Shown here: positions 3,671 to 59,800 of the stretch, piece by piece
Numbering within the stretch: the first letter of the stretch is position 1
Layout of the letters: the number at the start of each line of letters is the position of its first letter
IMG/VR virus record: IMGVR_UViG_3300024301_000012
Reading direction: 5' to 3' (one strand)
DNA: 64,000 nt
From: an uncultured virus (IMG/VR IMGVR_UViG_3300024301_000012)
Taxonomy: Duplodnaviria; Heunggongvirae; Uroviricota; Caudoviricetes
Notes under the pieces: model-generated
Told to the model about the DNA's origin: nothing
What the model saw: the letters and a program-made list of their open reading frames with translations, nothing else
Databases searched by the model: none
Made by a program: the position numbers and the translations under genes

Positions 3671-3680
3671 TTATTTTCTC

Positions 3681-19296: not shown

Positions 19297-20410
19297 TGAT
19301 ACAAAGGATACTTTTTGTGTTCTTCCTTTTATACATGCTGTATATAATCCGTTTGACACAGAGACAGAAAATTGTAATATCTTGCCTTGCTGTAGGTATG
19401 ATTTAAATTTTCATACTGAAACAAAAGAACATATAACTCCAATCAAAAATTCTGAAATTTTTAAAAAATTACAGAAAGAACTTTCTAATGGAATTAAATC
19501 TGAGCCTTGCTGGAGATGCTGGAAAGATGAAAAAATAGGCGTAAAAAGTTATAGGCAAGGAATGAATGAAAGTTTTTCTGAGTTAATACTAAGTGGTGAA
19601 TATAAAAATAAAAATTTAAGATTTTTAGAAATAACCCCCAGTAATTTATGTAATCTTGCATGTAGAAGTTGTAACTCTAGTTTTTCAAGTAAGTGGGTCC
19701 CTATAGATAATTTTATTGCTTCTGACAGAAACCAAAGTAAAACATCTTTTCCTAATTGGAAAAATATAGATGTGTCTGGTCTTATAGAATTAAAATTAAT
19801 GGGCGGCGAGCCTATGCTTTTACAAGAAAATATTGATTTTCTAGAGCATTTAGATCAAAAAAATAAATTAAAAGATATTACACTTACTGTGATAACAAAT
19901 TTGATGCGCCCATTAACAAAAAAATGGAAAGAATTGTTCACAAAATGTAAAGAAGTACACTTGTATGTTAGCATCGATGCGATAGGAGATTTAAACGATT
20001 ACATCAGAGAAGATTCTTCTTGGCCGACAATAGAAAAAAACTTAAACGAATTTTGGGAATTTTCCAATACCCATGGCATACACATGTCTGTCAACACAGT
20101 CATCACAATATTGAATGTAAATGTCTCAAGAGAAATAGAAAAATATTTTAAAGAAAAAGGCATACCGGCATATCAAGATGTTACCAGTTTTCCACCTCAT
20201 TTAGATTGTAAACAATTACCAGAAAAAATTAAAAACAAATTGTTAATACAGGGCGTTTCTAGCACTGTTGAAAAAAATATATTTTCTCTTGGAGAAAAAG
20301 AAAACATAGTTGAAGAATTCTATAATCATACATCTCGCTTAGATCAATATCATAAAAAAAGTTTTAAAGAGTATAATTCAAATATGAACGAGTTACTATT
20401 ATGCAGTTAA
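19289..20410 (+). CDS. radical SAM protein with N-terminal twitch/SPASM-like domain (7 of 7)
   Basis: FCVLPF..LPCC..CWRC; CNLACRSC; MGGEP. Confidence 0.9.
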   Translation: MSSDTKDTFCVLPFIHAVYNPFDTETENCNILPCCRYDLNFHTETKEHITPIKNSEIFKKLQKELSNGIKSEPCWRCWKDEKIGVKSYRQGMNESFSELILSGEYKNKNLRFLEITPSNLCNLACRSCNSSFSSKWVPIDNFIASDRNQSKTSFPNWKNIDVSGLIELKLMGGEPMLLQENIDFLEHLDQKNKLKDITLTVITNLMRPLTKKWKELFTKCKEVHLYVSIDAIGDLNDYIREDSSWPTIEKNLNEFWEFSNTHGIHMSVNTVITILNVNVSREIEKYFKEKGIPAYQDVTSFPPHLDCKQLPEKIKNKLLIQGVSSTVEKNIFSLGEKENIVEEFYNHTSRLDQYHKKSFKEYNSNMNELLLCS

Positions 20411-21243: not shown

Positions 21244-21337
21244 AATAAAAACCCTATATAAAAACTGGAAAAAAAAGAGAGCATTGAAAAAAAGACTGAG
21301 AGAACTAAAGGACCAGGATCCTTTTATATATGATTAA
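21233..21337 (+). CDS. 34-aa basic peptide overlapping the carbamoyltransferase start (not in ORF track)
   Basis: Read directly: MINKIKTLYKNWKKKRALKKRLRELKDQDPFIYD*; overlaps both neighbours. Confidence 0.55.
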   Translation: MINKIKTLYKNWKKKRALKKRLRELKDQDPFIYD

Positions 21338-22754
21338 ATGGGGTATTTCTGCCGGTACACATGATGCATCTTTGACTGTAATGAATGGCAACAATATATT
21401 ATTTGCTTCTCATGCAGAAAGATACAGCGGTATAAAAAATGATAAAGACTTGAATGCTGATCTTATTGCAGCAGCACTCAAGCATGGCTCGCCTGAAATT
21501 ATATTCTGGTACGAGAATCCTTATACGAAGGCATTGAGAAAAATCTATGCCGGACAACCTAACGCATGGATGAGCCCTAGAAAGTACTTGGACAAATATG
21601 GACTAGGGTGTGCCCATGTCGAGTATGGCAATCATCATGCGAGCCACATGGCTGCTGGTTACTACACCTCTCCCTTCGCAACAGCAGCAACCCTTGTAAT
21701 AGATGCAATAGGTGAGTTCAATACCGTCTCTATCTGGAAAGATACAAAGAAAATCTGGACAGCAAATTATCCCGCTTCTCTCGGTCTATTCTACTCTGCG
21801 ATGACAGCACGAGTAGGTCTAAAGCCAAACGAAGATGAATATATTCTCATGGGTATGGCAGCATACGGCAATCCAGATAGATTCTATAAAGAATTAAAAG
21901 AACTTTGCTTAGACGGTACAAATTTTCACAGAGGATGTCCTTGGTGGAAACCTGAACTTACTGAAGAAGATTACTTTGATGTTGCAGCAGCTACACAAAA
22001 ACTCTACGAACGATACTTTGCTAGTTTGTTGAGAATGACAAAAGACATGACAGGAGCAGATAATCTCGTTTTCATGGGTGGGTGCGCTCTTAACTGTCTT
22101 GCAAATAGAATTATACCTCAGCACTTTGAGAATCACTGGATCATGCCAAATCCAGGTGACGCAGGTTCTTCACTCGGTGCTATACTTGCACACACAAAAC
22201 AGAAAATAGATTTCGACAATGCTTTTCTGGGCGAAGAAATTGAAGGACATTATCCAGTTGACAAGGCACTAGAAAATCTGTTATCATGTGGTATAGTAGG
22301 AGTTGCAAGTGGTAGAGCAGAGTTTGGTCCTCGTGCATTAGGTAATCGTAGTTTACTAGCTGATCCTCGTGGACAAGAAATGAAAGACAAAGTAAATGGC
22401 ATCAAGCAGAGACAAGAGTTTAGACCTTTTGCTCCCGTTATACTAGAGTCAGATGTTCACGAGTATTTTAATGTAAGCAAAGGCTTTTCGTCTCCGTTTA
22501 TGCAACAAGTAGTGAGATGTAAATATCCTCTAAAGTATCCTGCTATCGTACACAAAGACGGCACGAGCAGAGTACAGACAGTGACAGAATATTCGCATCC
22601 AGGATTATTTACATTGTTGACAAAATGGAAAAAGAAAACTAAGTGTCCTATGCTTCTGAACACGAGTCTGAACATCAAAGGGAAACCTATTGTCAATAAT
22701 TTACAAGATGCAAAAGATTTTCAGAATAAGTACGGAGTTGAAGTCGTAAGTTAA
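21330..22754 (+). CDS. carbamoyltransferase (NodU/CmcH/TobZ family)
   Basis: HDAS, HHASH, VIDAIGE, GGCALNC, PGDAGSSLG, EFGPRALGNRS, FRPFAP, LNTSLN. Confidence 0.95.
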   Translation: MIKWGISAGTHDASLTVMNGNNILFASHAERYSGIKNDKDLNADLIAAALKHGSPEIIFWYENPYTKALRKIYAGQPNAWMSPRKYLDKYGLGCAHVEYGNHHASHMAAGYYTSPFATAATLVIDAIGEFNTVSIWKDTKKIWTANYPASLGLFYSAMTARVGLKPNEDEYILMGMAAYGNPDRFYKELKELCLDGTNFHRGCPWWKPELTEEDYFDVAAATQKLYERYFASLLRMTKDMTGADNLVFMGGCALNCLANRIIPQHFENHWIMPNPGDAGSSLGAILAHTKQKIDFDNAFLGEEIEGHYPVDKALENLLSCGIVGVASGRAEFGPRALGNRSLLADPRGQEMKDKVNGIKQRQEFRPFAPVILESDVHEYFNVSKGFSSPFMQQVVRCKYPLKYPAIVHKDGTSRVQTVTEYSHPGLFTLLTKWKKKTKCPMLLNTSLNIKGKPIVNNLQDAKDFQNKYGVEVVS

Positions 22755-27668: not shown

Positions 27669-27685
27669 TCTCAATAGTGTATAAT
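27658..27685 (+). promoter_or_regulatory. sigma70-like promoter
   Basis: TTGACA, 16 nt, TATAAT. Confidence 0.65.
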
Positions 27686-27691
27686 GGTATT

Positions 27692-28552
27692 ATGACTGAC
27701 GAAATAGAAGCAAAAATTGTAGTAACTGGTGGCTGTGGATTTATCGGTTCGCACCTTGTAGATAGACTATCTGATATTGGATTTCATGTTTATGTCGTTG
27801 ATGATAAGCGCCAAGGTAAGTATGTCATTGATAGACCTAACGTAGAATACTTTTTTGAAGATGTTTCTACTTGCAAGCTAACGGAGAAGATTACACGGCC
27901 ATTAGCAATTATGCATTTAGCAAATAGTCCTCGTGTTAGGCGTTCGCTTGAAGAGCCTAGAGACACTATAGATAATAACATAACTACAACAACTGCTGTT
28001 GCTGATTGGGCAAGACACTGGCACACATTCTTGTTCTTCGCAACATCTTCAAGTACACAGTATAAAGATTCAGTCAATCCGTATACTTGGAGCAAAGCAG
28101 CGTGTGAAGGAATATTGGAATTGTATAAAGAGTTGTATGATCTTAAATACATGAAAATGTTCTTTTACAATGTGTATGGTCCTAGAGAAGCAGACTACGG
28201 TCCATACAGCACAGTAATACGAAAGTTTAAGAAAGATTATTTGAAAGGAAATCCTCTTACTATTTTTGGTAATGGAAGTAAAGAGAGAGATTTTACTCAT
28301 GTAGATGATGTGGTACAAGGCATATTGCAGTTGTTAGTAGACCCTAATCACCACGAAGAAGTACATTTCGGCAAAGGTGATCCTAAGACTATACTATCAA
28401 TTGCTCAAGCATTTAACACCTCAATCGTTCATAGTTTTGATAAACCGGGCGAAGCGCAAACAACGATTTGCAAAAAGCCTTATATAGAATGTCCTAATGA
28501 TGTCTTCAGTTACATTGATAACTGGTTGAAGGAGAACACGATTGACAATTAG
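27692..28552 (+). CDS. NAD-dependent nucleotide-sugar epimerase/dehydratase
   Basis: VTGGCGFIGSHL, YTWSK, FYNVYGP, RDFTHVDD; start moved to the ATG downstream of the promoter. Confidence 0.9.
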   Translation: MTDEIEAKIVVTGGCGFIGSHLVDRLSDIGFHVYVVDDKRQGKYVIDRPNVEYFFEDVSTCKLTEKITRPLAIMHLANSPRVRRSLEEPRDTIDNNITTTTAVADWARHWHTFLFFATSSSTQYKDSVNPYTWSKAACEGILELYKELYDLKYMKMFFYNVYGPREADYGPYSTVIRKFKKDYLKGNPLTIFGNGSKERDFTHVDDVVQGILQLLVDPNHHEEVHFGKGDPKTILSIAQAFNTSIVHSFDKPGEAQTTICKKPYIECPNDVFSYIDNWLKENTIDN

Positions 28553-35089: not shown

Positions 35090-35097
35090 TATAAATA
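35090..35097 (+). promoter_or_regulatory. T4-type late promoter
   Basis: TATAAATA upstream of the ATG at 35140. Confidence 0.75.
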
Positions 35098-35139: not shown

Positions 35140-35613
35140 ATGGCTACTATTGTCAAAAGAGAGGATCTTGACCGGGCTCTCACTACAGAAGAAATGGATG
35201 CTAACTTTGAGAATTTGAACACAGACAAAATTGAAAATGGAAGCGATGTAACTTTTGGTGATATTACAGGCGATCTTAAAGGATACGGTGAGGTTATGCT
35301 CACTACAGATCCTGCTACTGGCTCTATAAATTTAGATTTATCAGCAGCAAACATCTTTAGATTAAATCTCACTGGAGATACAACTGTCACGTTTACTAAT
35401 CCTCCTGCTGCTGGCAGCACTTCTGTAGCAACGATTGTAGCAATACAAGATGGCTCAGGCGGGCATACGATTACTTGGACAGATGGTGCATTTGCAGGCG
35501 GAGTTGCACCCCCTGCTTCTACGGGAGCAAATGAAGTTGATATTTGGACTGCATTTACATACGATCAAGGTACATCGTATGTAGTATCTTTATCGATGAA
35601 GGATGTTAGCTAA
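35140..35613 (+). CDS. putative virion structural/adaptor protein
   Basis: Late promoter; N-terminus LTTEEMDANFENLNTDK is shared with the ORF at 61401; QDGSGGHTITW domain resembles fibre-associated domains. Confidence 0.65.
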   Translation: MATIVKREDLDRALTTEEMDANFENLNTDKIENGSDVTFGDITGDLKGYGEVMLTTDPATGSINLDLSAANIFRLNLTGDTTVTFTNPPAAGSTSVATIVAIQDGSGGHTITWTDGAFAGGVAPPASTGANEVDIWTAFTYDQGTSYVVSLSMKDVS

Positions 35614-38225
35614 TGCCAATTGGTAAGTTTGGACTAGAGAAGACTTGGAGAGCAAGCGGAACTGGTACATTTACCTTTAACGCTCCAGGAAATGTTGCTG
35701 TTCCTTTCGGCAAGAACTCTATCACAGTAGAGGGAAAAGGTGGCTCGGGCAATGCTGAAGTTGCTGGTACTATCGCTGGATATAATGCTCCTGTACCAGG
35801 CAATGCCGCTACATATAACCCTCCTGGTCAAAGTAATGTAGCGACATACAATGCTCCAACACCAGGTAATGTAGCGTCATATAATTCAGGTTCTTCTAGT
35901 AATCCAGCGACATACAATTCTCCAACACCAGGTACTGTAGCGACATATAATTCTCCAACAGGAGGTAATGCAGTTTATAATTCTCCAGATACTGATGTCA
36001 CATATAATCCAGTTACTGGCGGAAATGCTATATATGGGCCAGGGGGAGAGGTCCTTGTAGGTTATAATCCACCTGGTGAAGGAGATCCTGTGTATGGTCC
36101 AGGCACGTATGGAGTTGTGGGCTTTAATACTTCTGAGGATGGAACTGCTATATATGAACCAGGCGAAGAGGAACTTATAGGCTACAATCCAATAATCGGC
36201 GGAAACTTGGCTGGATACAATTCGCCCACAGCAGGTAGTGCAACAGGATATAATGCTCCATTTTACCATCCAGGAATTGAATACGGCGATCCTTTCATAC
36301 CACCAGATCCGCCATATTACGACCCAGGAACACCCACTGGATACAATTCTCCTACTCCTGGAACTGCTAACTATAATCCTGACAGTGGCGGAAATGCTAT
36401 TTATGAAACCGGCCCACCGGTACTTACAGGCTATAATGCACCAAGCGGCGGAAATCCTATTTATGGTGAGATTGGACCATACCCAATCGTAGGGTACAAT
36501 CCCGGACCACCAGGTACTGCTATTTACGAACAAAGTGAGGGTGAACTTATAGGTTATAATCCAATAGGCGGTGGAAATTTCGCTGGTGTTGACTATTATC
36601 CTGGAAATCCTACAGGAAATTATAATAGTTCTGGTTCAAGTAATCCAGCGACATATAATGCTCCAACACCAGGTAATGTAGCAACCTATAATTCAGAGTT
36701 ATCAGGAAATCCTGCTACATATAATGCAGATGTTGACGGTACTCCTGCTACATATAATACTTCTGGTTCAAGTAATCCAGCGACATATAATGCTCCAACA
36801 CCAGGTAATGTAGCGACATATAATGCTCCAACAGGAGGGAATGTTTCATCGTATAACACTGGATCTTCAAGTAATCCTGCAACATATAATCCACCTGATG
36901 AGGGAGATCCTATATATAGCCCTAGTGGTATACCGCCTGATCCTGAGCAATATTATCCTGGAACTCCTGCGACATATAATCCAGATATTCCAGGAACTGC
37001 AAATTATAGTACACCCGATGCAACCTATAATACGCCTACTCCTGGCAATGTAGCTTCATATAATTCTCCTACATATGTTCCTGCAGTTAATTATCCGCCT
37101 ACAATTACAGGATACACTTCGCCTACGCCTGGAAATGCTATTTATGGTCCAGGCACGTATGGAGTTGTAGGTTATAATCCACCTGGTGATGGAGAGATTG
37201 CTTACAATGCTCCTACTCCTGGAACTGCTATATATGCACCGGGAGACGAGGAACTTATAGGCTACAATCCACCTAGTGGTGGAAACTTAGCTGGATACAA
37301 TGCTCCTACATCAGGTAATCCAACAGGCTATAATGCTCCATTTTACTTTCCAGGGATTGACTATGGCGATCCTTTCATACCACCAGATCCGCCTGTTTAC
37401 GATCCAGGAACACCCACTGGATACAATTCTCCTACTCCTGGAGATGCTAACTATAATCCTACTAGCCCAGGTGATGCTATATATGGACCAGGCGATCCTG
37501 TACTTACTGGTTACAATTCACCCACTAACGGCACTGCTTTCTATAATCCTGGAACAGATGGTAATGCTATTTATGGTGAGGTTGGACCATATCCAATCGT
37601 AGGGTACAATCCACCTGATGGGGGAGATCCTATATATAGCCCGAGTTTAATTCCGCCTGATCCTGCGCAATATTATCCCGGAAATGCTAACTATAATCCA
37701 CCTGTTCCAGGGCCTGTTACTTACAATTCAGGTCCTATAGCAAACTATAATTCTCCTACTCCTGGCACTGTGGCGACATATAATGCTCCAATATATGTTC
37801 CTGCAGTTAATTATCCGCCTACAATTACAGGTTATACTTCGCCAGTCGAAGGCACACCAGCAACATATAACTCAGAGGCAGCTGGTAATCCTGCAACATA
37901 TAATGCTCCAACACCAGGTAATGTAGCGACATACAATGCTCCAGCACCAGGTAATGTAGCGACATATAATGTAGAGGAAGGAGGAACTCCTGCAACATAT
38001 AATGCTCCAACACCAGGTAATGTAGCAACATATAATGCTCCTATTGCAGCGCAGCCAGGGCAGCCCGCTACTGCATTAGGTATTACTTTACCAGGTTCAA
38101 ACGTAGGAGGCACTGAAGCAACATTTACATCTGCATCTGAGGTATCATATTATGATTATCCAGACGACAATACTTATCCAGTAGATGTTCCTGATGGAGG
38201 GGAAGTTACAATCAAAAAGAATTGA
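35613..38225 (+). CDS. Pro/Tyr/Asn/Gly-rich repeat protein, putative virion fibre or decoration
   Basis: 870 aa of roughly 12-aa repeats such as PGNVATYNAPT, with short non-repeat ends. Confidence 0.8.
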   Translation: MPIGKFGLEKTWRASGTGTFTFNAPGNVAVPFGKNSITVEGKGGSGNAEVAGTIAGYNAPVPGNAATYNPPGQSNVATYNAPTPGNVASYNSGSSSNPATYNSPTPGTVATYNSPTGGNAVYNSPDTDVTYNPVTGGNAIYGPGGEVLVGYNPPGEGDPVYGPGTYGVVGFNTSEDGTAIYEPGEEELIGYNPIIGGNLAGYNSPTAGSATGYNAPFYHPGIEYGDPFIPPDPPYYDPGTPTGYNSPTPGTANYNPDSGGNAIYETGPPVLTGYNAPSGGNPIYGEIGPYPIVGYNPGPPGTAIYEQSEGELIGYNPIGGGNFAGVDYYPGNPTGNYNSSGSSNPATYNAPTPGNVATYNSELSGNPATYNADVDGTPATYNTSGSSNPATYNAPTPGNVATYNAPTGGNVSSYNTGSSSNPATYNPPDEGDPIYSPSGIPPDPEQYYPGTPATYNPDIPGTANYSTPDATYNTPTPGNVASYNSPTYVPAVNYPPTITGYTSPTPGNAIYGPGTYGVVGYNPPGDGEIAYNAPTPGTAIYAPGDEELIGYNPPSGGNLAGYNAPTSGNPTGYNAPFYFPGIDYGDPFIPPDPPVYDPGTPTGYNSPTPGDANYNPTSPGDAIYGPGDPVLTGYNSPTNGTAFYNPGTDGNAIYGEVGPYPIVGYNPPDGGDPIYSPSLIPPDPAQYYPGNANYNPPVPGPVTYNSGPIANYNSPTPGTVATYNAPIYVPAVNYPPTITGYTSPVEGTPATYNSEAAGNPATYNAPTPGNVATYNAPAPGNVATYNVEEGGTPATYNAPTPGNVATYNAPIAAQPGQPATALGITLPGSNVGGTEATFTSASEVSYYDYPDDNTYPVDVPDGGEVTIKKN
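36168..37520 (+). repeat. internal DNA duplication with 1080-nt offset
   Basis: About 36168-36440 aligns with about 37248-37520, e.g. GGCGATCCTTTCATACCACCAGATCCGCC in both. Confidence 0.85.
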
Positions 38226-38250
38226 CATGTTCTAAATAATTATATATAAT
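38222..38250 (+). promoter_or_regulatory. consensus sigma70 promoter for the oxygenase-glycosyltransferase genes
   Basis: TTGACA (38222-38227, overlapping the upstream TGA stop), 17 nt, TATAAT (38245-38250). Confidence 0.85.
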
Positions 38251-38268
38251 GTAGTATTATAATATACT

Positions 38269-38877
38269 TTGAGTGAAAATATTATGCCAAAAATTGCAAA
38301 ATATAATGCTCCTCTGCAATGTTATGCCCATATGACTCAGGCTTTCAGTGCAGAGGAAGTTGAAAAAATTAGAGAAATAGAAGAGCTGCAAACATTTCAG
38401 CAAGGAACTGTAGGCTCTTCTACAATGAGTCCTGAAGACATGAAAAAGGCAAGAGACTCTTCTGTCTTTTTTATGAATCATGATGAGAACACCAATTGGT
38501 TATACCAGAAAATGGGATCCCTCATAGGAACCGCCAACAAAGATCATTTCATGTATGATGTAGATGATTTTGGTCCTATGCAATATACCAAATACGAACT
38601 CAATGGCCATTATACTTGGCATTGGGACGTTTTCTTTGGATATCAAATTAAACAAAGAAAAATATCTGTAGTCGTTATGCTAAACGATCCAGAAGATTAC
38701 GAAGGCGGTGATTTTCAAATTTGCATCAACGGCAATCTCGATGAAATTCAAACTATTCGGCCAAAGAAAGGCGATGCACTTTTCTTTGCCTCCTGGATGC
38801 CTCACAGAGTCACTTCAGTAACTTCTGGCGAAAGAAATACACTGGTTACATGGGTAACTGGTCCTAGAGAATCATAA
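38269..38877 (+). CDS. 2OG-Fe(II) oxygenase, prolyl-4-hydroxylase/PKHD-type
   Basis: QYTKY..GHYTWHWD, RKISVVVML, YEGGDF, FASWMPHRVTSVTSGERNTLVTW. Confidence 0.92.
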   Translation: MSENIMPKIAKYNAPLQCYAHMTQAFSAEEVEKIREIEELQTFQQGTVGSSTMSPEDMKKARDSSVFFMNHDENTNWLYQKMGSLIGTANKDHFMYDVDDFGPMQYTKYELNGHYTWHWDVFFGYQIKQRKISVVVMLNDPEDYEGGDFQICINGNLDEIQTIRPKKGDALFFASWMPHRVTSVTSGERNTLVTWVTGPRES

Positions 38878-39605
38878 TGTTTAATTTTTTGAAGAAAAAA
38901 GAAACTCCTATCATAGAGTTTTATTGTCATCCTAGTGTTCAAGGAATAATACCTGAGCCACGACCTGCAAACAAACATGTACCAGAGTGGTTCAAAAGTA
39001 TACCTCCTACTATGCCGTCAAAAGATAATGTCAATAGGCCTAATATGACTGCAAAAAAATGTATGCCTATGTTAGATGCTATGACATTAGGTTATGTTAT
39101 TCCTCTTTGTGGGGATCTAGGACTAAAGTCTTCGGAGGACTTGAGACAAATTGAAGTTTTTAATCCCCCCCAAATCAAATTAGCAGAGTTTCATAATCTA
39201 GAACAGTTAGGACCAAAAGCTCCTGGTATGCCAGCTCCTCCTGTTAAGTTTATAAATCATTGGGTAGTAAAGACTGCTCCTGGATGGAGTACACTGTTCA
39301 TGCCTCTTGTGAATAACAACTTACAGAATCCACACTTTACTTGCTTAGGAGGATTAGTAGACACAGATACTTATCCAAAAGAAGTAAATTTTCCTGCTGT
39401 TTGGCATACTCCAAATTTTGACGGTCATCTTCCAGCAGGAACTCCTCTTGTAGTAGCAATTCCTGTTAAAAGAGATTCTGTTCCTAGAGACTGTTCTGTT
39501 AGACCTATGTCAGATAAAGAATTTAAAGCTATTGATGACATTCGAAAACAACAAAATACTAGAGTTCGTGTTTATACTGATGAGTTGAGAGAGAAAAGAA
39601 AATAA
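38877..39605 (+). CDS. hypothetical protein (DUF6065-like, tentative), paralog A
   Basis: PEWFK, KKCMPMLDAMTLGYVIP, W.VKT.PGWS.LF, GLVDTD, GTPL...IP. Confidence 0.6.
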   Translation: MFNFLKKKETPIIEFYCHPSVQGIIPEPRPANKHVPEWFKSIPPTMPSKDNVNRPNMTAKKCMPMLDAMTLGYVIPLCGDLGLKSSEDLRQIEVFNPPQIKLAEFHNLEQLGPKAPGMPAPPVKFINHWVVKTAPGWSTLFMPLVNNNLQNPHFTCLGGLVDTDTYPKEVNFPAVWHTPNFDGHLPAGTPLVVAIPVKRDSVPRDCSVRPMSDKEFKAIDDIRKQQNTRVRVYTDELREKRK

Positions 39606-40327
39606 TGCCTTTATTTTTTAAAAAGAAAAAAGATATTGAGTTTGTTGATGTATCTAGAAACGCATACCTGGATTTTCCTGTACAGTTAGCGAAAGACGTA
39701 GAAGTTATAGGAAAAGATGCCAGAATAGCAAAAACAGGAGCAAACATTTTTCCACATTGTCCTGGTATGGCAGACTATGCAAAACTTGGATATGTAATAC
39801 CTGCGTGGGTAGACATAAAGATTAAAGCAAATAAAGCTGGTGTAGTGTCTACTATAGGTTCTAAACAACGAGGAGCTAGGGGCTTTTTACAACCAAGAAA
39901 AATGGATTCTAATATTGTAGAAGGAATCATAAAAATAGAAGACAATGTTCCTCTCACTGTATTACACATAGGTGCACCTTGGAATATTTTTGTTAGTAAA
40001 AATATATCAGCTCTTATACTTCCTGCAATTTATCACAATGATGTTTTTGATGACTTGCATATATGGCCAGGGGTAGTGGACTATAAAAACTTTTCTACAG
40101 CAAATCTAATTTGTACACCAAAGAGAAAGTGCGAGATAAATATAAAGGCAGGAGAACCTTTGTTACATATAATACCATTTTTAAATACTGATTTAATAGG
40201 TGGTTATGGACCTGGAACAGATCAACAAGTTGATAAGAGTCGAAATTCAATACTTAGCGGTGATAGTCAATACTATAGAAAATTTCTTTCTGTCAAAAAA
40301 CTGTTCACTTTGGATAAAAAAGAATGA
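39605..40327 (+). CDS. hypothetical protein (DUF6065-like, tentative), paralog B
   Basis: HCPGMADYAKLGYVIP, PW, PGVVD, AGEPLLHIIPF. Confidence 0.6.
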   Translation: MPLFFKKKKDIEFVDVSRNAYLDFPVQLAKDVEVIGKDARIAKTGANIFPHCPGMADYAKLGYVIPAWVDIKIKANKAGVVSTIGSKQRGARGFLQPRKMDSNIVEGIIKIEDNVPLTVLHIGAPWNIFVSKNISALILPAIYHNDVFDDLHIWPGVVDYKNFSTANLICTPKRKCEINIKAGEPLLHIIPFLNTDLIGGYGPGTDQQVDKSRNSILSGDSQYYRKFLSVKKLFTLDKKE

Positions 40328-41271
40328 AAATTTTTGTTAGTGTAGTCTCTTTTCGTGATCCTTTATTAAAATATACCGTTAAAAGTTTGTTAGATGAACG
40401 CTCCGATGATAACGAAATAACTATAGGTGTCTTTGAACAAACGTGTCTTGAAGACAGTCTTGTTACAGTTGAGCCAGACCTAGTCAACCATCCAAATGTA
40501 AAATATAAAAGAATAGATCCTGAGTATGCAGATGGAGTAGTTTGGGCTAGAAAAATAAATGCTGCTCACATCGAAGACGAAGATTTTATATATCAAGTAG
40601 ATTCCCATATGCTTTTTAACAAAAATTGGGATCGTTACTTATTGCAAGATTGGGAATTGGGAAGACAAAAAGCAAAAAATACTAGAGTCATTCTAACTGC
40701 TGCTTGCCACAACTTCAAACTAGAAGATGGTAAGCCATTTAAAATGTATGATCCAAATCATCATAAAACTAGCAGAGGAAGATACTTTACATTTCAAAAA
40801 CACATTAGAAGACCTGCCGCTCATGGTGAACACATTGATAGCACCGAAGACGTAGAACCAGCTATACATATCTTTGCAGGAAATTTCTTTGCTCCTACTC
40901 GCTGGGTCGATGAAATAGGATACGATTCAAGAATATTTTTTGACGGCGAAGAACACTATATGGTATTGAAGTCATTCATTAATGGCTGGTCTCTTTTTAA
41001 TCAAAGAGAGATGCATTGTTTTCATTTTTTGGGAACACACGATTATGTTACTAAGCATTGGGTTGATCCAATCACTGACAAATATGGTCCTCTTAGTAAT
41101 CGTGGTCAGAAATACTGGAAAAAGTTTATTGAAAGTATTTCTGAAGAAGATTTAAAGAAATATCATGAATACTCTGGTGTCGATTATATAAACGGAATAA
41201 TCGAAGAAAAGGCATTCACTCGCCAAATAATAGATCCGAAAGCAACTGGCACTCCAGACTCAGAAGATTAG
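40324..41271 (+). CDS. GlcNAc transferase, Skp1-hydroxyproline GlcNAcT (GT60/Gnt1)-like
   Basis: KIFVSVVSFRDP, GVFEQ, GVVWAR, YQVDSHMLF..NWD, AGNFF, FFDGEE. Confidence 0.8.
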   Translation: MKIFVSVVSFRDPLLKYTVKSLLDERSDDNEITIGVFEQTCLEDSLVTVEPDLVNHPNVKYKRIDPEYADGVVWARKINAAHIEDEDFIYQVDSHMLFNKNWDRYLLQDWELGRQKAKNTRVILTAACHNFKLEDGKPFKMYDPNHHKTSRGRYFTFQKHIRRPAAHGEHIDSTEDVEPAIHIFAGNFFAPTRWVDEIGYDSRIFFDGEEHYMVLKSFINGWSLFNQREMHCFHFLGTHDYVTKHWVDPITDKYGPLSNRGQKYWKKFIESISEEDLKKYHEYSGVDYINGIIEEKAFTRQIIDPKATGTPDSED

Positions 41272-41290: not shown

Positions 41291-41298
41291 TATAAATA
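41291..41298 (+). promoter_or_regulatory. T4-type late promoter
   Basis: TATAAATA upstream of gp48. Confidence 0.75.
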
Positions 41299-53897: not shown

Positions 53898-56800
53898 ATG
53901 GCCCTTAATTTAAATTCTTCACCTTATTACGATGATTTTGATCCTCAAAAGAATTACCATCGGGTACTTTTTAAGCCGGGGGTTGCTGTTCAAGCTAGAG
54001 AATTGACTCAGCTTCAAACAGTTCTTTCCGATCAATTATCACAATTAGGTAGTTTTAATCTTAAAGAAGGTGCAGTCATTAGTGGCTGTGAGCAAAAAAT
54101 TGAAAACTTTAAGTTCGTTAAAATCCTCGATGAGGATGCTAATGAAGATCCTATTGCTAATGCCGATCTCGCTTCTTATGATGGTGCAATTCTAGTCGGA
54201 GCAACTACTGGACTAAGGGCAAGAATTATTACACACAAGACTGGACAAATCACAGTCAGCGATTCAATTAATACAAAAGCATTATATATTGTTTACATAG
54301 ATGAGAATGGCCAAAACGCAGACTTAACAACTAATCAATATCAAAGATTCCAACAAGGAGAAACATTAACAGTAGAGTCTGTAAACACGGAAATAAAAGG
54401 ACACACTTTTGTTACTCAAACTACTGAGGGGGGAACTTTTGGTAAGAGAGACTTTTATGCAGGCATAGCTCCTCATTTAACTATGTCTCCTGGCATAATT
54501 TATGCTCTTGGCAATTTTATTCGAACTAAAAATCTCTCTGTTTTTATTGATAGCTTTAGTCCTTATACAGATAAAAAGATAGGATTCTTAGTAAATCAAT
54601 CTATCAAACAAGCGTCTGTTGATGGTACTCTATACGACAACGCTAGAGGAACTTTTAATGAGGGAGCTCCTGGTGCAGATAGATTGCAAAATACTGTATC
54701 ATTAATATCTTATAACAGAGATTCTTCACCAGCAGATAACTATTTCCAGATTGCAACATTCTCTAACGGAAAAATTACAAGAGCAGATATACAAACAGAT
54801 CCTTTAGGCGGAATTAGAGAAATTCTGGCTAGAGAAACATTTGATAGACACGGTAATTATGTTTCAAAAGGATTGCAGGTTTATTTTACAGAGCATTTGC
54901 GATCTTATCGTGGAAAAAACAACGGAAGATTTACGCCAAATGGTATAGGTGATGCTACTAAACTTATTCTAGGTGTTACTGCTGGCTCAGGAAATGTTGC
55001 TGGATATCCTGTAGAGTATTTGAAAGAAACTGAATTTTCTTTTCCTAAACCAAGTGCTACTCAAATAGAAAATACTGTTTCTCAATCTACTTCGTTTGGT
55101 AACTATGTAATTGTCAATGATTTATGTGGCGCATGGGACACGGATGGCGCAGATACAAGTGCTAATGGTATTGTAAACCTACACAGCGTTGTATCTAATG
55201 GAGTTTCAGGCGGTGCGTATTCTAACACTTCTGTGCCAGGAAACATAGTAGGCACTGCAAAAATTAGATACATTGAATTATCGTCTGGTACACCTGGAAC
55301 TGCAACCGCTGAATTCAAACTGTATTTGTTTGATATAAAAATGTTTGATGGAGAATTTGGTGCAGTAAGATCGATCTCTTATGAGAATGCCGAAGCAAAC
55401 GCCTTTGCAGACATCGTACTCAACTCAGCAGGCGATGCACAAGTATATGAAAAGAATTCAAATAAATTTCTTTGGAATTTACCATATAAACATTTAAAAA
55501 CTTTACAAGCCTCTACTGCTGGAGTTTTTGATTATAATTTTAAATTTATTAAAGAATATGATAAAATTGCACCTTCTGACGGTAATATAAATCTTGCAGC
55601 AGAAGGAGATCATACTTTCTTTTTTGGTAATGGCCCAGTATCGAATTCCGATGTCGCTAGTCATATTAAATTAGTAGCAAGAGAATCTTTTGAACTAGAC
55701 GGCACTGTGATTGAAAAAGGAGAATTTATTGATCTCACTGGTAAAGTAGTACAAGGCGAAATTAACTCTTTGACTATTAATTTAGGTAGTTTGAACGATA
55801 TAGGAGGAGCTCCTTTTGCGGTTAGAGTCTATGTCAATATGCAAGTTTCTAACGATGGTCCTATCACTAAGAGCCTAGAGAAAACAAAATATGTCAAAAT
55901 AGAAGCAGATACAAATGAAAACTTTGCTAATAATAGATTCTGTCTCGGTGTGCCTGACGTATTCAGAGTAACAAGAATTACAGCCACATCAAACGCAGAT
56001 TATACTACTGGTGCTAGAAATGTCTCAACCTTGTTTAATGTAGACTCTGGTCAAAGGGATAATTTTTATGGATTATCTTATATCGAAAAGAAAACTAGCA
56101 GCGCAATAGACCTTACTGTTGAAAAATATCTTACAGTAGAATTTGATTACTTTGATAATGGCACAATTGACGGGCCAACTTTTGCTTGTATAGATTCATA
56201 TCCTGTCGATGATACTGGTTTAACTGGAATTAGAACAGAAGAAATTCCTATATATGTGTCTAAGTCATCTGGTAAAGTATTTGATTTAAGAAATGCTATT
56301 GATTTTAGACCTTTCATGGAGGCAACAGAAACGCCTGGCTCAACAGAGGCAACAGCTCCTGTCAATCCAAGTTCTTTTGAACAAATTAAACGTCCCCCCG
56401 GAGGACTTACTAATCCTATTCCTTCGGCTACATTTACAACAGATTTAGAATTTTATTTAGCTGAAGCATATAGAGTAGTTATTACTCCTTCTGGTAAAAT
56501 AGATATAGTTAAAGGTGTTGCTTCGGTTTCACCTAAACTTCCTCCTCCTCCTGAAGGATCGATGACTCTAGCCACTGGAGTATTGCCACCGTATCCGTGT
56601 CTTTCGCAAAGAGCTGCAACAAATTATGGCCGAGAAGATTTGGCCATGACAATTGTTCCTGTAAAGAACAAAAAGTATACAATGAGGGATATAGGTGCTC
56701 TTGAACAAAGAATATCAAATCTGGAATACTATACTACACTTACTTTGTTAGAAAAGGAAGCAGGAAAAGTAGTCATCCCTGACTCTGACGGTATAGACAG

Positions 56801-59800
56801 ATATAAAAACGGTTATCTTGTTGACTCTTTTTCGAACTTTAGTGTAGTTCAGGTTAATAATCCTGACAACACATCTTCTATTGATGTTAAGAAGAGGGAG
56901 CTTCGAGCGGCCTTTAAGACTTCTCAAATAGGATTCAAACCAATAGCAACTGGAACTACTGCTGGTCAGTCTGGTTATTTCTGGCATGTTCCTTACAATG
57001 AAGCAATTTATACACAGCAAACTCAAGCTAGTTCTTATCGTAATGTGGTGGGAGAATTGTTTATAACTCCGCCTCCTGCTACAGAACAAGAAGCAGAAGA
57101 AACTGCTACAAATAATGGTGGTACAGGACAAGATCAGACAGAGACAGAACCTTCAACTAATGATACTGAAGCAAGTCAGAGAGGTACAACTCCAACTTCT
57201 CCTAGTTATCATCTTATCAGATCAAAAACAACAGTTAATGAAGGTGACACATTTACTATAACATTAGAAACAACAAATGTTCCAGAAGGTACAGTTCTAC
57301 GTTATACAGTCTTTGGTGTAACTAGCGATGATTATAGTACTGTTCCTACGACAGCAGCAGATGGAACAGGAACTCTTACTGTAGATTCAACTGGTTTTGC
57401 GTACTTAAGAGTTACTATCGCAGAAGATTTGACTACTGAAGGGACTGAAACATGGGGGATTACGCTGAGTGATATAGGAATAACAGCAAGCACTTCAGTG
57501 ACAATCAATGACACTTCAGTTACACCTAGTGATAACAATAATAACAATAATAATAACAATAATAATAACAATAATAAAATCGCAACTGGTCCTTGGATAG
57601 GTAGCGCAGATGTACAGCCTCCTATTTCTAATTTCATAGATACTAATTACGAGGGAGAGCCTCTTCAAAATGACAATGGAGAATATGACCATTTATTAAG
57701 AAGCAGCGGATTTAATAGTGAAGGATATTCATCTGGTTGGGAGTTGCAATGGGGTAACTGGGAATTTGCAACAGGTACGATTGGAGCTTTAGATCCAGGT
57801 GTAAACTTTGGAACTTCAGCAGATCCAGCCAATGCCATTGATCTCGGCGAAGACGGTTTATACATTCCAGAATACAATGCCACTTGGGTGAATCCAGAAG
57901 CTATAGATCCTAACTCAACTACTGTATGGGATTATCGGGAATATGATTATCTTTGGAATGGATCTAAAGAAGCACCTGTTTATGAAGACACGGCAGATCT
58001 TCGTGTTAAAACATTAGCAAGACAAGAAAATCTTCAGGTTCAATTTTGGGGGCTCAAGCCTGATACACCACACACCGTTTTTGTCAATGGTACACCATAT
58101 GGATCTAATGGAGGAGCTCCTCGAGTGAGTTTTGCGAGCGGAAGATTTACTGTAGGTGTACTCTTGAATCCTGGACAATGGCCCGCTAATGAATTGATTA
58201 GGATTGAAGCCGCAAATCATAATGATCCGTCTCAAGCAGATTCTCGTGCTGTTGGATATTTTTTACCTAATCACTCAGTAAGACGAGACGTAATAACGAA
58301 TTTGTCTACTAGATTTCCTAAACCGGCATACGATGTAGTATCACGACAAGTGAAAAGTAGTCGTCCCAGCTTAGAGAATGTAGTCGGAGTGAAAGGGCTT
58401 GACTTCGCAGGCTATAGACATGTTAAACTTACTAATGGTACAGAAGATCCTTGGGTATCAGTTAATCGTCTCGACGGTCAAGGCATGGTTCGTGCAAATA
58501 GGGTTCCAATTGAACAATTGGATCTTAATGATACTGTTCTCGGGGTTGAATGTGACCCTATATTCGGTGATAGTGGAGTATCTAGATCAGTTCTTCAAAG
58601 AGCCGATGGTACTAGATATGGAGTAGAAATAATAGATCCAGGGTGTGCTACATATAATGATTATATACAATCTCAGGCTACTCCTTCTATTCCTGAACAA
58701 GGGAAAGTTTATACTGAAATAGATTCAGTAAATACTGGTACAGTACAAGTTGAAACTTCACAAATACTTATTCTTGACGACTCTGGCACTGTAGATACTG
58801 AAACAGGAACAGTTCAAACTATTGACGCATCTCGTTATACTCACGGAGATGCTGATGAGTCTACTGCTGATATTAACACAAGTGCGACTTCCAGTAGTTT
58901 GGGTGAAAGTAATATAAAACTAGACTCTTCTCTTACAAATAAAGATTTAGAAAAAACGGAAGTCATTAATGCTTCTAACGCTCTTTCTGTGTCTGGTGTA
59001 GATGATATAGATTCAGCTAAATTAGCTGAAATTGTTGCTGCGCTAGACTTTGATTTTTCAACACCAGAATTATGTATAGGCGAAACGCAAGATCCGTTAG
59101 CACAGTCTTTCTTTGTTGAGGGAATGGAAGGAGGAATGTTCATTACTTCTGCTGATATATTCTTCAGAAATAAATCAGCAGAGGAAAATAATAACGGCAT
59201 TACTCTACAGATCAGAGAAATGATAAACGGTGTACCAGGACCATATATTATAGCTGAATCTCATAAAACAAGATCAGAGTGTTTGGTATCTACTGAAGAT
59301 GCTTCTGGTAATGTAACATTTAACTCTACTAACTTTAAATTTGATGGCCCTGTCCATCTTCAAAATAATACTGAATACTGTATGGTACTTAAGCCAGATG
59401 CAAATGATCGTGGCTATGAGGTTTGGTTAGGTAAACTAGGCGAGACTAGAAAAGGTTCAACTGAAGTTATAACAGAGCAAACACATTCAGGAATTCTATT
59501 TACATCTGCAAATAACAGAACTTGGTCTGCACATCAAGATGAAGATTTAATGTTTGTTGTAAGACGAGCTAAGTTTGAAGTTAATCAAGATTATATTATA
59601 AACACAGTAAATAAAAATATTGATTGGATTAAATTCGATGCAGATGAGTGGGATCGAACTCCTAATGCAGCACTTGGATTTGACTCTGATAACAATCCAT
59701 TGACTCCTGCAAGTTATTTTCCCGCAGGCAATTTTGTACACGGATTTAAACTTACAATAACCAGCGCAGGCTCTTATGCTGAAGCCGAAGATGATGCTAC

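What the first reader, a model, noticed from the sequence alone, without database searches (positions are those of the whole stretch)
35140..41271. Candidate phage hydroxyproline-O-GlcNAc glycosylation system for a Pro/Tyr-repeat virion protein
Seen: a late-promoter unit (adaptor plus an 870-aa Pro/Tyr/Asn/Gly repeat protein) is followed directly by a P4H/PKHD-type 2OG-Fe(II) oxygenase, two paralogous unknowns and a glycosyltransferase with IFVSVVSFRDP / GVVWAR / QVDSHM / DGEE motifs. The block sits between gp4 and gp48. Known: in Dictyostelium, Skp1 is hydroxylated by prolyl hydroxylase PhyA and the hydroxyproline is then GlcNAcylated by the GT60 enzyme Gnt1. Inference: this locus encodes substrate, hydroxylase and glycosyltransferase together, producing an extensin/mucin-like glycosylated virion fibre.
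Basis: partly seen in the sequence, partly recalled or inferred. Interest (0 to 1): 0.88.

Follow-up and report, generated by a model that had tools for sequence, protein, structure and literature searches.

The report
Phage fibre-protein hydroxylase-glycosyltransferase tailoring cassette
An uncultured T4-like marine phage encodes a fast-evolving repeat protein next to its own hydroxylase, two unknown nucleotide-enzyme-like proteins and a protein-type sugar transferase, a gene set shared by many phages that probably decorates a host-binding fibre chemically, though no chemistry has been shown.

Summary
The window encodes, on the + strand, a 157-aa tail-fibre-like protein, an 870-aa repeat protein, a P4H/PKHD-type 2OG oxygenase, two paralogs and a PF11397 (GT60) glycosyltransferase.

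- The GT model is closest to the polypeptide GalNAc-transferases and keeps the GT27/GT60 DxH motif.
- The oxygenase profile hits only PKHD and prolyl hydroxylases in the PDB.
- The genes travel together. Of 64 distinct cassettes, 57 of 61 evaluable have the repeat gene just upstream of the oxygenase. Paralog A is in 61 of 61, paralog B in 58 of 61 and the GT in 54 of 61.

New here:
- The two unknowns have a dUTPase-like fold (DUF6065-related).
- The obligatory core is oxygenase plus paralog A, not the GT. Some GT-less cassettes carry a sulfotransferase.
- The constant repeat motif is aromatic-Asn, not Pro. The GT tracks that motif.
- A perfect sigma-70 promoter separates the enzyme genes from the repeat gene.
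- A prophage in an Undibacterium isolate carries the core cassette.

Hydroxyproline-O-GlcNAc chemistry remains unproven. This scan found the same cassette before on other DNA (three genomes).

The parts
35090..35097 (+). TATAAATA, a T4-type late-promoter-like motif 43 nt upstream of the first gene of the block
   Evidence: In 3 of 4 RNA-library runs laid, the leftmost contig starts 17-67 nt downstream of it (weak hint only).
35140..35613 (+). 157-aa minimal tail-fibre-like protein ('adaptor'), homologous to the C-terminal domain of long fibre proteins that precede the repeat gene in relatives
   Evidence: PHROG tail-fibre families phrog_7760 and phrog_9017, E about 2e-8, matched at their C-termini. 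Homologous domain at the C-terminus of 400-2400-aa ORFs in 47 of 80 loci (example L109).
35613..38225 (+). 870-aa hypervariable repeat protein: conserved N-domain (~45 aa), aromatic-Asn/Pro/Gly/Thr repeats (11-aa unit xPxxGNxATYN), conserved C-domain (~55 aa). Presumed substrate.
   Evidence: The 489-aa version in the near-identical phage L082 shows the window copy has a duplicated central block.
38222..38250 (+). Perfect sigma-70-type promoter (TTGACA-17-TATAAT) in the gap between the repeat gene and the oxygenase gene
   Evidence: A score of 11/12 or better lies in the intergenic gap of 18 of 64 distinct cassettes, against 37 of 3000 random 160-nt windows.
38284..38877 (+). 2OG-Fe(II) oxygenase of the PKHD/prolyl-hydroxylase superfamily (197 aa from ATG 38284; the ORF opens at TTG 38269)
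   Evidence: PF13640 E 1.9e-18; phrog_61; profile versus PDB: PiuC 4e-13, chlorovirus P4H 2.5e-8, PHD2 about 1e-6 to 1e-5; invariant H113, D115, H174, R184.
38877..39605 (+). Paralog A, a dUTPase/dCTP-deaminase-fold protein (phrog_7084, DUF6065-related) with many invariant polar residues
39605..40327 (+). Paralog B, same family as A but more diverged (18% identity)
   Evidence: Present in 58 of 61 evaluable cassettes. Tandem two-domain forms of the family exist.
40324..41271 (+). GT-A glycosyltransferase of PF11397 (GT60) with a DxH motif (D93-S94-H95)
41291..41298 (+). TATAAATA upstream of gp48, marking the start of the next late unit and the right boundary of the block

Best explanation
This is a conserved, mobile 'fibre-tailoring' module of tailed phages. 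A hypervariable repeat protein is encoded immediately after a tail-fibre gene, or here after a minimal 157-aa version of that fibre's end domain. It is post-translationally modified in the host cytoplasm by the enzymes encoded just downstream. The obligatory core is a PKHD/prolyl-hydroxylase-type 2OG-Fe(II) oxygenase working with a DUF6065-type dUTPase-fold protein (paralog A, usually with paralog B, probably as a pair). This core most likely hydroxylates residues in the repeats, with Pro the family-level best guess. An optional second step then conjugates a group. In this window it is a retaining, Mn-dependent GT60/GT27-like polypeptide HexNAc-transferase; in some relatives it is a sulfotransferase instead. 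The enzyme genes have their own sigma-70-type promoter, so they can be made before the late-expressed substrate. Shown: gene content, family and fold assignments, synteny, promoter motifs, hypervariability. Inferred: that the repeat protein is the substrate, the residue, the sugar, the order of steps, the virion location and the role of A and B.
For: Family and fold: PF11397 E 5.2e-24 and PF13640 E 1.9e-18. The GT model (pLDDT 94.8) matches polypeptide GalNAc-transferases best: Foldseek lists only such enzymes in its top rows, E 2e-12, and VIA-align gives Z 21.7 with 275 residues aligned and Z 20.2 with 266, against Z 18.5 or less for generic GT-A. The D-S-H motif is invariant in 36 homologs, and DxH is the GT27/GT60 hallmark (PMC7185993, passages). 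In the oxygenase profile search every PDB hit with E < 1e-4 is a PKHD or prolyl hydroxylase, while TET-like DNA dioxygenases reach only E 0.37-0.5. Synteny from the GT side: of 80 loci, 62 have the 2OG gene, 64 have A and 65 have B, mostly in the order 2OG-A-B-GT. The 15 loci without B are 2 cut at the contig end and 13 with GT identity of 39% or less. From the A side: 2OG in 76 of 76, B in 75 of 78 and GT in 69 of 78 evaluable loci. Deduplicated, there are 64 distinct cassettes. In 57 of 61 a repeat-protein gene ends within 1700 nt upstream of the 2OG gene, and in 54 of those within 100 nt. A is in 61 of 61, B in 58 of 61 and GT in 54 of 61. The backbones differ: gp48 is present in only 6 of 80 loci, and a podovirus-like prophage in Undibacterium also carries the core. 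Two GT-less cassettes carry Sulfotransfer_2 genes instead, E 4.8e-10 and 1.2e-5. That fits a hydroxylation core followed by alternative O-conjugation steps. Hypervariability: enzymes are 95-99% identical between the window and L082, but the repeat protein is 870 versus 489 aa. For the promoter. RNA-library contigs cover the block in 4 of 4 runs laid (presence only).
Against: No chemistry is shown anywhere. Pro is not in every repeat unit and falls to 4-6% in some relatives. GT presence goes with aromatic-Asn density (median 6.8 versus 1.6 per 100 aa; n = 43 versus 7; p 6e-5, not corrected for relatedness) and with lower Pro (11.3% versus 19.3%). That is not what a simple Hyp-O-sugar model predicts. 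The closest solved oxygenases are PiuC-type enzymes, and I could not find their substrate in print. The separate sigma-70 promoter allows an early role unrelated to the late substrate. The dUTPase-like fold of A and B and the position of distant family members beside ribonucleotide reductase genes in halovirus HF1 and cyanophage S-RIM4 point to nucleotide chemistry, which the model does not explain. The repeat protein has no family hit, and its virion location rests on gene position alone.
Confidence: 0.55

Rival explanations
1. Two independent modifications. The GT acts like the Trypanosoma cruzi GT60 enzyme or the mucin-type GT27 enzymes and puts HexNAc directly on Ser/Thr, or on another residue of the aromatic-Asn units (xA[S/T][Y/F]N), without needing prior hydroxylation. 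The oxygenase plus A/B perform a separate modification.
For: GT60 includes a Thr-directed polypeptide GlcNAc-transferase (PMC6939170, passages). GT60 and GT27 share a polypeptide Ser/Thr O-glycosylation mode (PMC7185993, passages). The best structural matches are Ser/Thr GalNAc-transferases. GT presence tracks aromatic-Asn density rather than Pro. The GT is dispensable while the oxygenase and A are not.
Against: Ser+Thr content is the same in proteins from GT+ and GT- cassettes (16.0% versus 16.1%). The residue before the aromatic is not always Ser or Thr (GYN, NYN, QNFN). The GT clade at 41% identity or more is never seen without the oxygenase where the DNA allows a judgement.
Confidence: 0.25
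2. The enzymes are early host-takeover genes that hydroxylate or glycosylate host proteins (for example translation factors, as the bacterial prolyl hydroxylase PPHD does with EF-Tu) or host surface precursors. They sit beside the fibre genes only because that is a hot spot for accessory genes.
For: A perfect sigma-70-type promoter lies directly upstream of the enzyme genes and is conserved in 18 of 64 cassettes. The profile hits PPHD (4iw3) at E 4.9e-7. phrog_61 oxygenases are widespread in marine phages and are annotated as auxiliary genes (PMC12774648, passages).
Against: The oxygenase gene starts within 100 nt of the repeat gene's stop in 54 of 61 distinct cassettes, across unrelated phage backbones. 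That is far tighter than a hot spot would give. Many clades have only a ~20-nt gap and no promoter of their own there.
Confidence: 0.08
3. The cassette modifies nucleotides, nucleotide sugars or DNA bases (oxidation followed by glycosylation), with the dUTPase-fold proteins as the nucleotide-handling enzymes.
For: A has a dUTPase/dCTP-deaminase-like fold: the top 22 VIA-align hits are all from that superfamily, Z 9.8 to 5.7, and the next hit is 4.3 (Foldseek E 7e-4). Distant family members lie beside ribonucleotide reductase genes. Oxygenase-plus-glycosyltransferase DNA hypermodification systems exist in phages and kinetoplastids (recalled, not checked here).
Against: The oxygenase is of the P4H/PKHD type, and TET/JBP-like enzymes score only E 0.37-0.5. 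The GT's nearest structures are polypeptide transferases. A and the oxygenase stay together with the repeat protein even where there is no GT at all. The module lies inside structural gene blocks. No dUTPase or DCD Pfam model is matched even at E 10.
Confidence: 0.07

Closest known systems
Skp1 prolyl-hydroxylation/glycosylation pathway of Dictyostelium and Toxoplasma (PhyA P4H, then the GT60 enzyme Gnt1 adding alpha-GlcNAc to hydroxyproline)
   Same: A cytoplasmic pairing of a P4H-superfamily 2OG oxygenase with a PF11397/GT60-type polypeptide transferase (PMC6939170, passages).
   Different: Skp1 is modified at one Pro of a globular protein, followed by further sugars from other GTs. Here the candidate substrate is a hypervariable repeat protein, no further GT is present, and two DUF6065 proteins are obligatory. 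The GT is optional or replaced by a sulfotransferase, and the oxygenase is closer to PiuC than to PhyA/PHD-type enzymes. The Hyp linkage is untested.
Polypeptide GalNAc-transferases (GT27, mucin-type O-glycosylation) and the Trypanosoma cruzi polypeptide alpha-GlcNAc-transferase (GT60)
   Same: These are the best structural matches over the whole catalytic domain. The DxH metal motif is shared. The acceptor is a repeat-rich polypeptide.
   Different: There is no lectin domain and no signal or membrane anchor, and sequence identity is only about 15%. The PDB sequence searches find nothing. The acceptor residue and the sugar are unknown.
Viral and algal prolyl 4-hydroxylases acting on Pro-rich repeats (chlorovirus P4H, PDB 5c5t; Chlamydomonas P4H, 2jig)
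   Same: A virus-encoded P4H-superfamily enzyme with a repeat protein as likely substrate. Profile E-values are 2.5e-8 and 1.9e-6. That these enzymes act on Pro-rich repeats is recalled, not checked here.
   Different: The nearest relatives are bacterial PKHD/PiuC enzymes at E 4e-13. Pro is not constant in the repeats.
Mycobacteriophage virion glycosylation by phage-encoded glycosyltransferases (Freeman et al. 2023, seen only as a reference entry)
   Same: Phage-encoded GTs that decorate the phage's own structural proteins.
   Different: The GT families differ and the targets are capsid and tail-tube C-termini (recalled). There is no hydroxylase, no DUF6065 pair and no dedicated hypervariable substrate gene.
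gp38-type adhesins of T-even phages, encoded after the distal fibre gene
   Same: A small, fast-evolving, Gly/Pro-rich protein encoded directly after the fibre gene, with conserved ends and variable middle segments.
   Different: No sequence or family match was obtained here, no structure was predicted, and gp38 has no dedicated modifying enzymes.
dUTPase/dCTP deaminase superfamily; Pfam DUF6065
   Same: The fold of paralog A. A cellular homolog passes the DUF6065 threshold, E 1.4e-10. Atlas neighbours carry DUF6065 in 11-23% of members.
   Different: The protein is about 100 residues longer than dUTPases and hits no dUTPase/DCD Pfam model. Its genomic partner is a protein hydroxylase rather than nucleotide enzymes.

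Membership tests
GT60 / Pfam PF11397 (Gnt1-like polypeptide GlcNAc-transferases) | Sequence match to the family model above the curated threshold | tested here: met
   PF11397 E 5.2e-24, 85.8 bits against a cut-off of 21. All 120 listed homologs carry PF11397.
GT60 / Pfam PF11397 (Gnt1-like polypeptide GlcNAc-transferases) | GT-A fold close to GT27 polypeptide transferases | tested here: met
   Model pLDDT 94.8. GalNAc-T1 Z 21.7 with 275 residues aligned; the Foldseek top rows are all ppGalNAc-Ts, E 2e-12.
GT60 / Pfam PF11397 (Gnt1-like polypeptide GlcNAc-transferases) | DxH in place of the DxD metal-binding motif | tested here: met
   D93-S94-H95 is invariant in 36 sequences. The motif rule comes from PMC7185993 (passages).
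GT60 / Pfam PF11397 (Gnt1-like polypeptide GlcNAc-transferases) | UDP-GlcNAc donor, retaining alpha-transfer to a polypeptide hydroxyl (Hyp or Thr) | not testable with these tools
   Needs an enzyme assay and linkage analysis.
Prolyl 4-hydroxylase / PKHD-type 2OG-Fe(II) oxygenases (PF13640) | Family model match and relatives among solved prolyl hydroxylases | tested here: met
   PF13640 E 1.9e-18. Profile: PiuC 4e-13, 5c5t 2.5e-8, 4iw3 4.9e-7, EGLN1 about 1e-6 to 1e-5, 2jig 1.9e-6.
Prolyl 4-hydroxylase / PKHD-type 2OG-Fe(II) oxygenases (PF13640) | HxD...H iron triad and a basic residue for the 2OG C5 carboxylate | tested here: met
   H113, D115, H174 and R184 are invariant in 33 homologs. The role assigned to each residue is recalled from the family.
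Prolyl 4-hydroxylase / PKHD-type 2OG-Fe(II) oxygenases (PF13640) | Peptidyl-proline as the substrate | not testable with these tools
   The composition data are ambiguous. Pro is 4-25% of the repeat proteins and is not in every unit.
Skp1-type hydroxyproline glycosylation pathway | The GT needs prior prolyl hydroxylation of the same residue | not testable with these tools
   Only co-occurrence is shown. The GT tracks aromatic-Asn density rather than Pro.
Skp1-type hydroxyproline glycosylation pathway | Skp1 as substrate, with further elongating glycosyltransferases | tested here: not met
   There is no second GT in the block, and the neighbouring gene is a repeat protein with no family match.
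dUTPase / dCTP deaminase superfamily | The fold | tested here: met
   Model pLDDT 90.3. The top 22 VIA-align hits are all from this superfamily, Z 9.8-5.7, and the next is 4.3. Foldseek E 7e-4.
dUTPase / dCTP deaminase superfamily | Sequence membership and the five dUTPase motifs, including the C-terminal P-loop-like motif | tested here: inconclusive
   No Pfam hit even at E 10. 'GLVDTDTY' resembles dUTPase motif III, but only by recall. The C-terminus is helical in the model.
Pfam DUF6065 (PF19541) | Family model match | tested here: inconclusive
   The window's A and B do not hit it. A 37%-identical cellular homolog does, at E 1.4e-10 against a cut-off of 26.6 bits. Atlas neighbours carry it in 11-23% of members.

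The most novel reading that the evidence does not exclude
The oxygenase and the DUF6065 dUTPase-fold pair together form a previously unrecognised protein-modifying machine. It installs a new kind of modification on aromatic-Asn/Pro repeats of a phage host-recognition protein. Interchangeable second-step enzymes (HexNAc-transferase or sulfotransferase) then turn the hypervariable fibre tip into a glyco- or sulfo-adhesin. This would be a widespread way for uncultured aquatic phages to diversify host recognition chemically as well as genetically.
Probability: 0.3. Interest if true: 0.9.

Novelty: new variant of a known kind. Interest (0 to 1): 0.77.

Why it matters
Enzymatic decoration of phage particles is known from only a few systems, and hydroxyproline-type glycosylation is regarded as a eukaryotic (and eukaryotic-virus) trait. 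A self-contained cassette of substrate plus hydroxylase plus transferase was found here in 64 distinct versions among the fetched loci. The DUF6065-type family it carries has thousands of members. If the cassette works as proposed, many aquatic phages tune their host-binding appendages by post-translational chemistry. It would also give a first functional context to DUF6065 and to the abundant marine-phage '2OG-Fe(II) oxygenase' genes. The hypothesis can be tested in a culturable host, because the core cassette sits in a prophage of an Undibacterium isolate.

Tried and rejected
- Megablast of the block against 50,697 phage records: no match.
- tblastn of the GT against the same collection: only two jumbo Xanthomonas phages at 23% identity. 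No cultured phage in that collection carries the cassette.
- PDB sequence searches with the GT profile and with the single GT sequence (E up to 10): nothing. Fold search was needed.
- Pfam (E up to 10) and NCBIfam (E up to 1) for A, B, the adaptor and the repeat protein: nothing meaningful. The Shiga-toxin-B model rows for the GT at E 0.16-0.18 are chance and were not followed.
- Complex prediction of the adaptor with the repeat protein of the closest relative L082: 'no answer', score 0.00 in two runs. This is neither for nor against binding.
- The search for homologous proteins with lengths 'longer' for fused forms of A: none. The exhaustive profile search did list 13 proteins of 420 aa or more, 12 of them with two domains, so the first result was a sensitivity miss.
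- Whole-genome tools: no genome is held for this window.
- Literature: 'DUF6065' gives 0 papers. 'GT60' plus 'phage' gives nothing relevant among 6. The four-term search phage/prolyl hydroxylase/glycosyltransferase/tail fiber gives only the Phold paper. The PiuC search listings gave no substrate.
- Earlier-findings look-ups by place and by words: nothing.
- Tyr as the universal modified residue was rejected, because a whole clade uses Phe-Asn.
- Aromatic-Asn as strictly universal was also rejected, because L096 uses F/Y-Thr units.
- RNA-library contigs: no claim is made from parts without cover or from depth.
- The context of the Acidimicrobiia homolog L165 was uninformative.
- Supplementary files of the papers were not consulted.

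Full report
WHAT IS THERE.

The window is part of an uncultured T4-like phage. The region around the finding encodes gp26-, gp19-, gp2- and gp4-like proteins on the minus strand. On the plus strand it encodes gp48-, gp53-, gp5-, gp6-, gp7- and gp8-like baseplate proteins. The best cultured relative of gp48 is Pelagibacter phage HTVC008M, at only 35% identity. Megablast of the block finds nothing among 50,697 phage records, and no whole genome is held for the window.

- 35140-35613: a 157-aa protein.
- 35613-38225: an 870-aa repeat protein.
- 38269-38877: a 2OG oxygenase. ATG 38284 is the likelier start, because homologs begin MP..IPKY.
- 38877-39605 and 39605-40327: two paralogs.
- 40324-41271: a glycosyltransferase.

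The repeat protein is 16% Pro, 15% Gly, 11% Asn, 11% Thr and 10% Tyr. It has 49 Tyr-Asn dipeptides, mostly 11 residues apart.

THE ENZYMES.

The transferase matches Pfam PF11397 at E 5.2e-24. Sequence searches of the PDB find nothing. A confident model (pLDDT 94.8) is closest to the polypeptide GalNAc-transferases by two aligners. Foldseek lists only such enzymes in its top rows, at E 2e-12. VIA-align gives Z 21.7 with 275 residues aligned and Z 20.2 with 266, ahead of generic GT-A enzymes at Z 18.5 or less. D93-S94-H95 is invariant in 36 homologs.

The papers agree with this placement. PMC7185993 (passages) says GT27 and GT60 are sister retaining families that share a polypeptide O-glycosylation mode and replace DxD by DxH. 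PMC6939170 (passages) says Gnt1 is GT60 and depends on PhyA-made hydroxyproline. It also says GT60 contains the Trypanosoma cruzi polypeptide GlcNAc-transferase.

The oxygenase matches PF13640 at E 1.9e-18. A profile of 33 cassette homologs hits only PKHD or prolyl hydroxylases at E < 1e-4:
- PiuC, 4e-13
- chlorovirus P4H 5c5t, 2.5e-8
- PPHD 4iw3, 4.9e-7
- PHD2, about 1e-6 to 1e-5
- Chlamydomonas P4H, 1.9e-6

TET-like DNA dioxygenases reach only E 0.37-0.5. H113, D115, H174 and R184 are invariant. One qualification: the nearest solved relatives are PiuC-type enzymes, not canonical P4H.

THE TWO 'UNKNOWNS'.

Both belong to phrog_7084 and share 18% identity. A model of paralog A (pLDDT 90.3, pTM 0.83) has a dUTPase/dCTP-deaminase-like fold. 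The top 22 VIA-align matches are all from that superfamily (Z 9.8 to 5.7) and the next hit is Z 4.3. Foldseek gives E 7e-4. No dUTPase Pfam model is matched.

The family links to Pfam DUF6065 in two ways. A 37%-identical cellular homolog hits it at E 1.4e-10, and atlas neighbours carry it. I found no paper on DUF6065.

The family is large: 3186 representative clusters at E 1e-3 or better and 570 at E 1e-30 or better. Of the 150 best hits, 13 are 420 aa or longer, and 12 of those contain two such domains in tandem. That fits A and B acting as a pair.

Distant members in halovirus HF1 and cyanophage S-RIM4 lie beside ribonucleotide reductase genes. The family may therefore have a nucleotide-related ancestry.

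CO-OCCURRENCE, THE KEY TEST.

From the GT side I fetched 80 viral loci. Of these, 62 have the oxygenase, 64 have A and 65 have B, mostly in the order oxygenase-A-B-GT. The 15 loci without B are 2 cut at the contig end right at the GT and 13 whose GT is 39% identical or less.

From the A side, 243 stretches in viral contigs encode a relative, and the best 80 were kept. Among these, the oxygenase is present in 76 of 76, B in 75 of 78 and the GT in 69 of 78 loci with enough flanking DNA.

After removing duplicates there are 64 distinct cassettes:
- In 57 of 61 evaluable, an ORF carrying the repeat protein's conserved C-terminal domain ends within 1700 nt upstream of the oxygenase gene. In 54 of those it ends within 100 nt.
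- The four misses each have a repeat-type ORF elsewhere in the locus.
- A is present in 61 of 61, B in 58 of 61 and the GT in 54 of 61.

The phage backbones differ. gp48 is nearby in only 6 of 80 loci. A scan of species-representative genomes also found the core (fibre, repeat protein, oxygenase, A, B; no GT) in the chromosome of an Undibacterium isolate. There it sits inside a prophage structural block with a major head protein, tail fibres and an internal virion protein.

THE REPEAT PROTEIN FAMILY.

The upstream proteins are mostly too diverged in their repeats for phmmer, which links 27 of 80. They nevertheless share two conserved ends:
- an N-terminal domain of about 45 aa (..KTW..GTTTFNAPGN..IPYGR..VSG.GG.G);
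- a C-terminal domain of about 55 aa (..LGV.FPGG..YW.YPDNATYPV.VP.GG.I.VK).

Between these lie repeats with periods of 7 to 36 residues, often around a central non-repeat segment. The full proteins range from 213 to 854 aa.

The window's closest relative, L082, has enzymes 95-99% identical and an adaptor 96% identical. Its repeat protein is 489 aa against 870 aa here, because the window copy has duplicated its central block. Hypervariability of this kind next to a fibre gene is what host-recognition proteins show.

The 157-aa 'adaptor' matches the C-termini of tail-fibre PHROGs. It is homologous to the last domain of the long fibre proteins that precede the repeat gene in 47 of 80 loci.

WHICH RESIDUE?

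The only near-constant repeat feature is an aromatic residue followed by Asn. One clade uses Phe-Asn in place of Tyr-Asn, which rules out the Tyr hydroxyl as a universal target. One GT-less lineage uses F/Y-Thr units. Pro ranges from 4% to 25% and is not in every unit.

I compared 43 distinct full-length repeat proteins from GT-containing cassettes with 7 from GT-less ones. Figures are medians; the p-values are not corrected for relatedness, and the 7 GT-less proteins come from about 5 lineages.

| Feature | With GT | Without GT | p |
|---|---|---|---|
| Aromatic-Asn per 100 aa | 6.8 | 1.6 | 6e-5 |
| Length (aa) | 601 | 312 | 6e-5 |
| Pro (%) | 11.3 | 19.3 | 0.0036 |
| Ser+Thr (%) | 16.0 | 16.1 | 0.54 |

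The GT therefore tracks aromatic-Asn arrays rather than Pro. Two GT-less cassettes carry Sulfotransfer_2 genes instead. That fits a hydroxylation core followed by alternative O-conjugating second steps. It fits equally well a GT that acts on its own.

EXPRESSION SIGNALS.

TATAAATA lies 43 nt upstream of the first gene and again before gp48, with none in between. The motif is not enriched in the window overall.

A 12/12 sigma-70 consensus (TTGACA-17-TATAAT) sits in the 58-nt gap before the oxygenase gene. A match of 11/12 or better occurs in 21 of 64 distinct cassettes. Three of these overlap the start codon and cannot serve the gene, leaving 18 of 64 in the intergenic gap. The background is 37 of 3000 random 160-nt windows. 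Other clades have only a ~20-nt gap. In this phage the enzyme genes can therefore be transcribed on their own, plausibly before the late substrate.

Eleven salt-marsh metatranscriptome runs hold 72-91% of the block's sampled words. In 4 of 4 runs laid, contigs cover the block at 99% identity or better. The leftmost contig starts at 35114, 35164, 35033 and 35127 in the four runs. Contigs also bridge the repeat-gene end, the gap, the oxygenase and A. These are contigs from RNA libraries, so they show presence, not transcription.

VERDICT.

The best reading (confidence 0.55) is a mobile fibre-tailoring module. The repeat protein is modified by an oxygenase plus DUF6065 core, with a GT60-type HexNAc-transferase as an optional second step. 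The specific hydroxyproline-O-GlcNAc chemistry is one possibility within that reading and is not shown.

The rivals are:
- independent Ser/Thr-type glycosylation (0.25);
- early host-directed enzymes (0.08);
- nucleotide or DNA chemistry (0.07).

My searches found no description of this cassette in print. Phage virion glycosylation as such is known from mycobacteriophages (Freeman et al. 2023), which I saw only as a reference entry.

Earlier agents of this scan described the same cassette in three other genomes. I had reached the fold and synteny results before reading those notes, and my tests agree with them.

Added here:
- the aromatic-Asn constant and its link to the GT;
- the sigma-70 promoter;
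- the tandem two-domain DUF6065 forms;
- the DUF6065 link;
- the prophage in a culturable host.

Noticed in passing
window 8867-20410 (+): A run of seven radical-SAM-domain ORFs (8867-10381, 10378-11808, 12848-14245, 14901-16163, 16118-17461, 17462-18679, 19289-20410; PHROG E 1e-7 to 1e-16), interspersed with unannotated ORFs. This is an unusually dense radical-SAM array for a phage.
   Followed up: no
window 21330-22754 and 27677-28552 (+): A Nol-like carbamoyltransferase (phrog_1601, E 5e-98) and a nucleotide-sugar epimerase (phrog_540, E 7e-44). The epimerase could supply the sugar donor for the glycosyltransferase.
   Followed up: no
window 53898-61148 (+): A 2416-aa protein of phrog_358 (unknown function, E 4e-256) downstream of the baseplate genes. 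It is probably a giant structural or fibre protein.
   Followed up: no
L164 (Undibacterium sp. isolate, contig NZ_JBMPPC010000001.1) 5685-9436: A prophage in a culturable bacterium carries fibre, a 210-aa repeat protein, oxygenase, A and B without a GT. It lies between a major head protein and an internal virion protein. This is a tractable experimental system.
   Followed up: partly
L096 6307-7008; L142 5658-6365: Sulfotransfer_2 (PF03567) genes are inserted in GT-less cassettes (E 4.8e-10 and 1.2e-5). L096 also has a Peptidase_S74 intramolecular-chaperone fibre just upstream, at 3394-4020.
   Followed up: partly
proteins P0135, P0148, P0160, P0193, P0206, P0216, P0225, P0239, P0249, P0250, P0258, P0265: Natural 450-500-aa proteins with two DUF6065-type domains in tandem. 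Both halves score better with the A profile than with the B profile.
   Followed up: partly
L081 (halovirus HF1) 5917-6801; L162 (cyanophage S-RIM4) 6995-7789: Lone, distant phrog_7084 members lie next to ribonucleotide reductase genes, without an oxygenase or a GT.
   Followed up: partly
literature (PMC12801897): A cyanomyovirus virion proteome is reported to contain a 2OG-type 'prolyl 3,4-dihydroxylase' (passages). I did not check whether it is related to this cassette.
   Followed up: no
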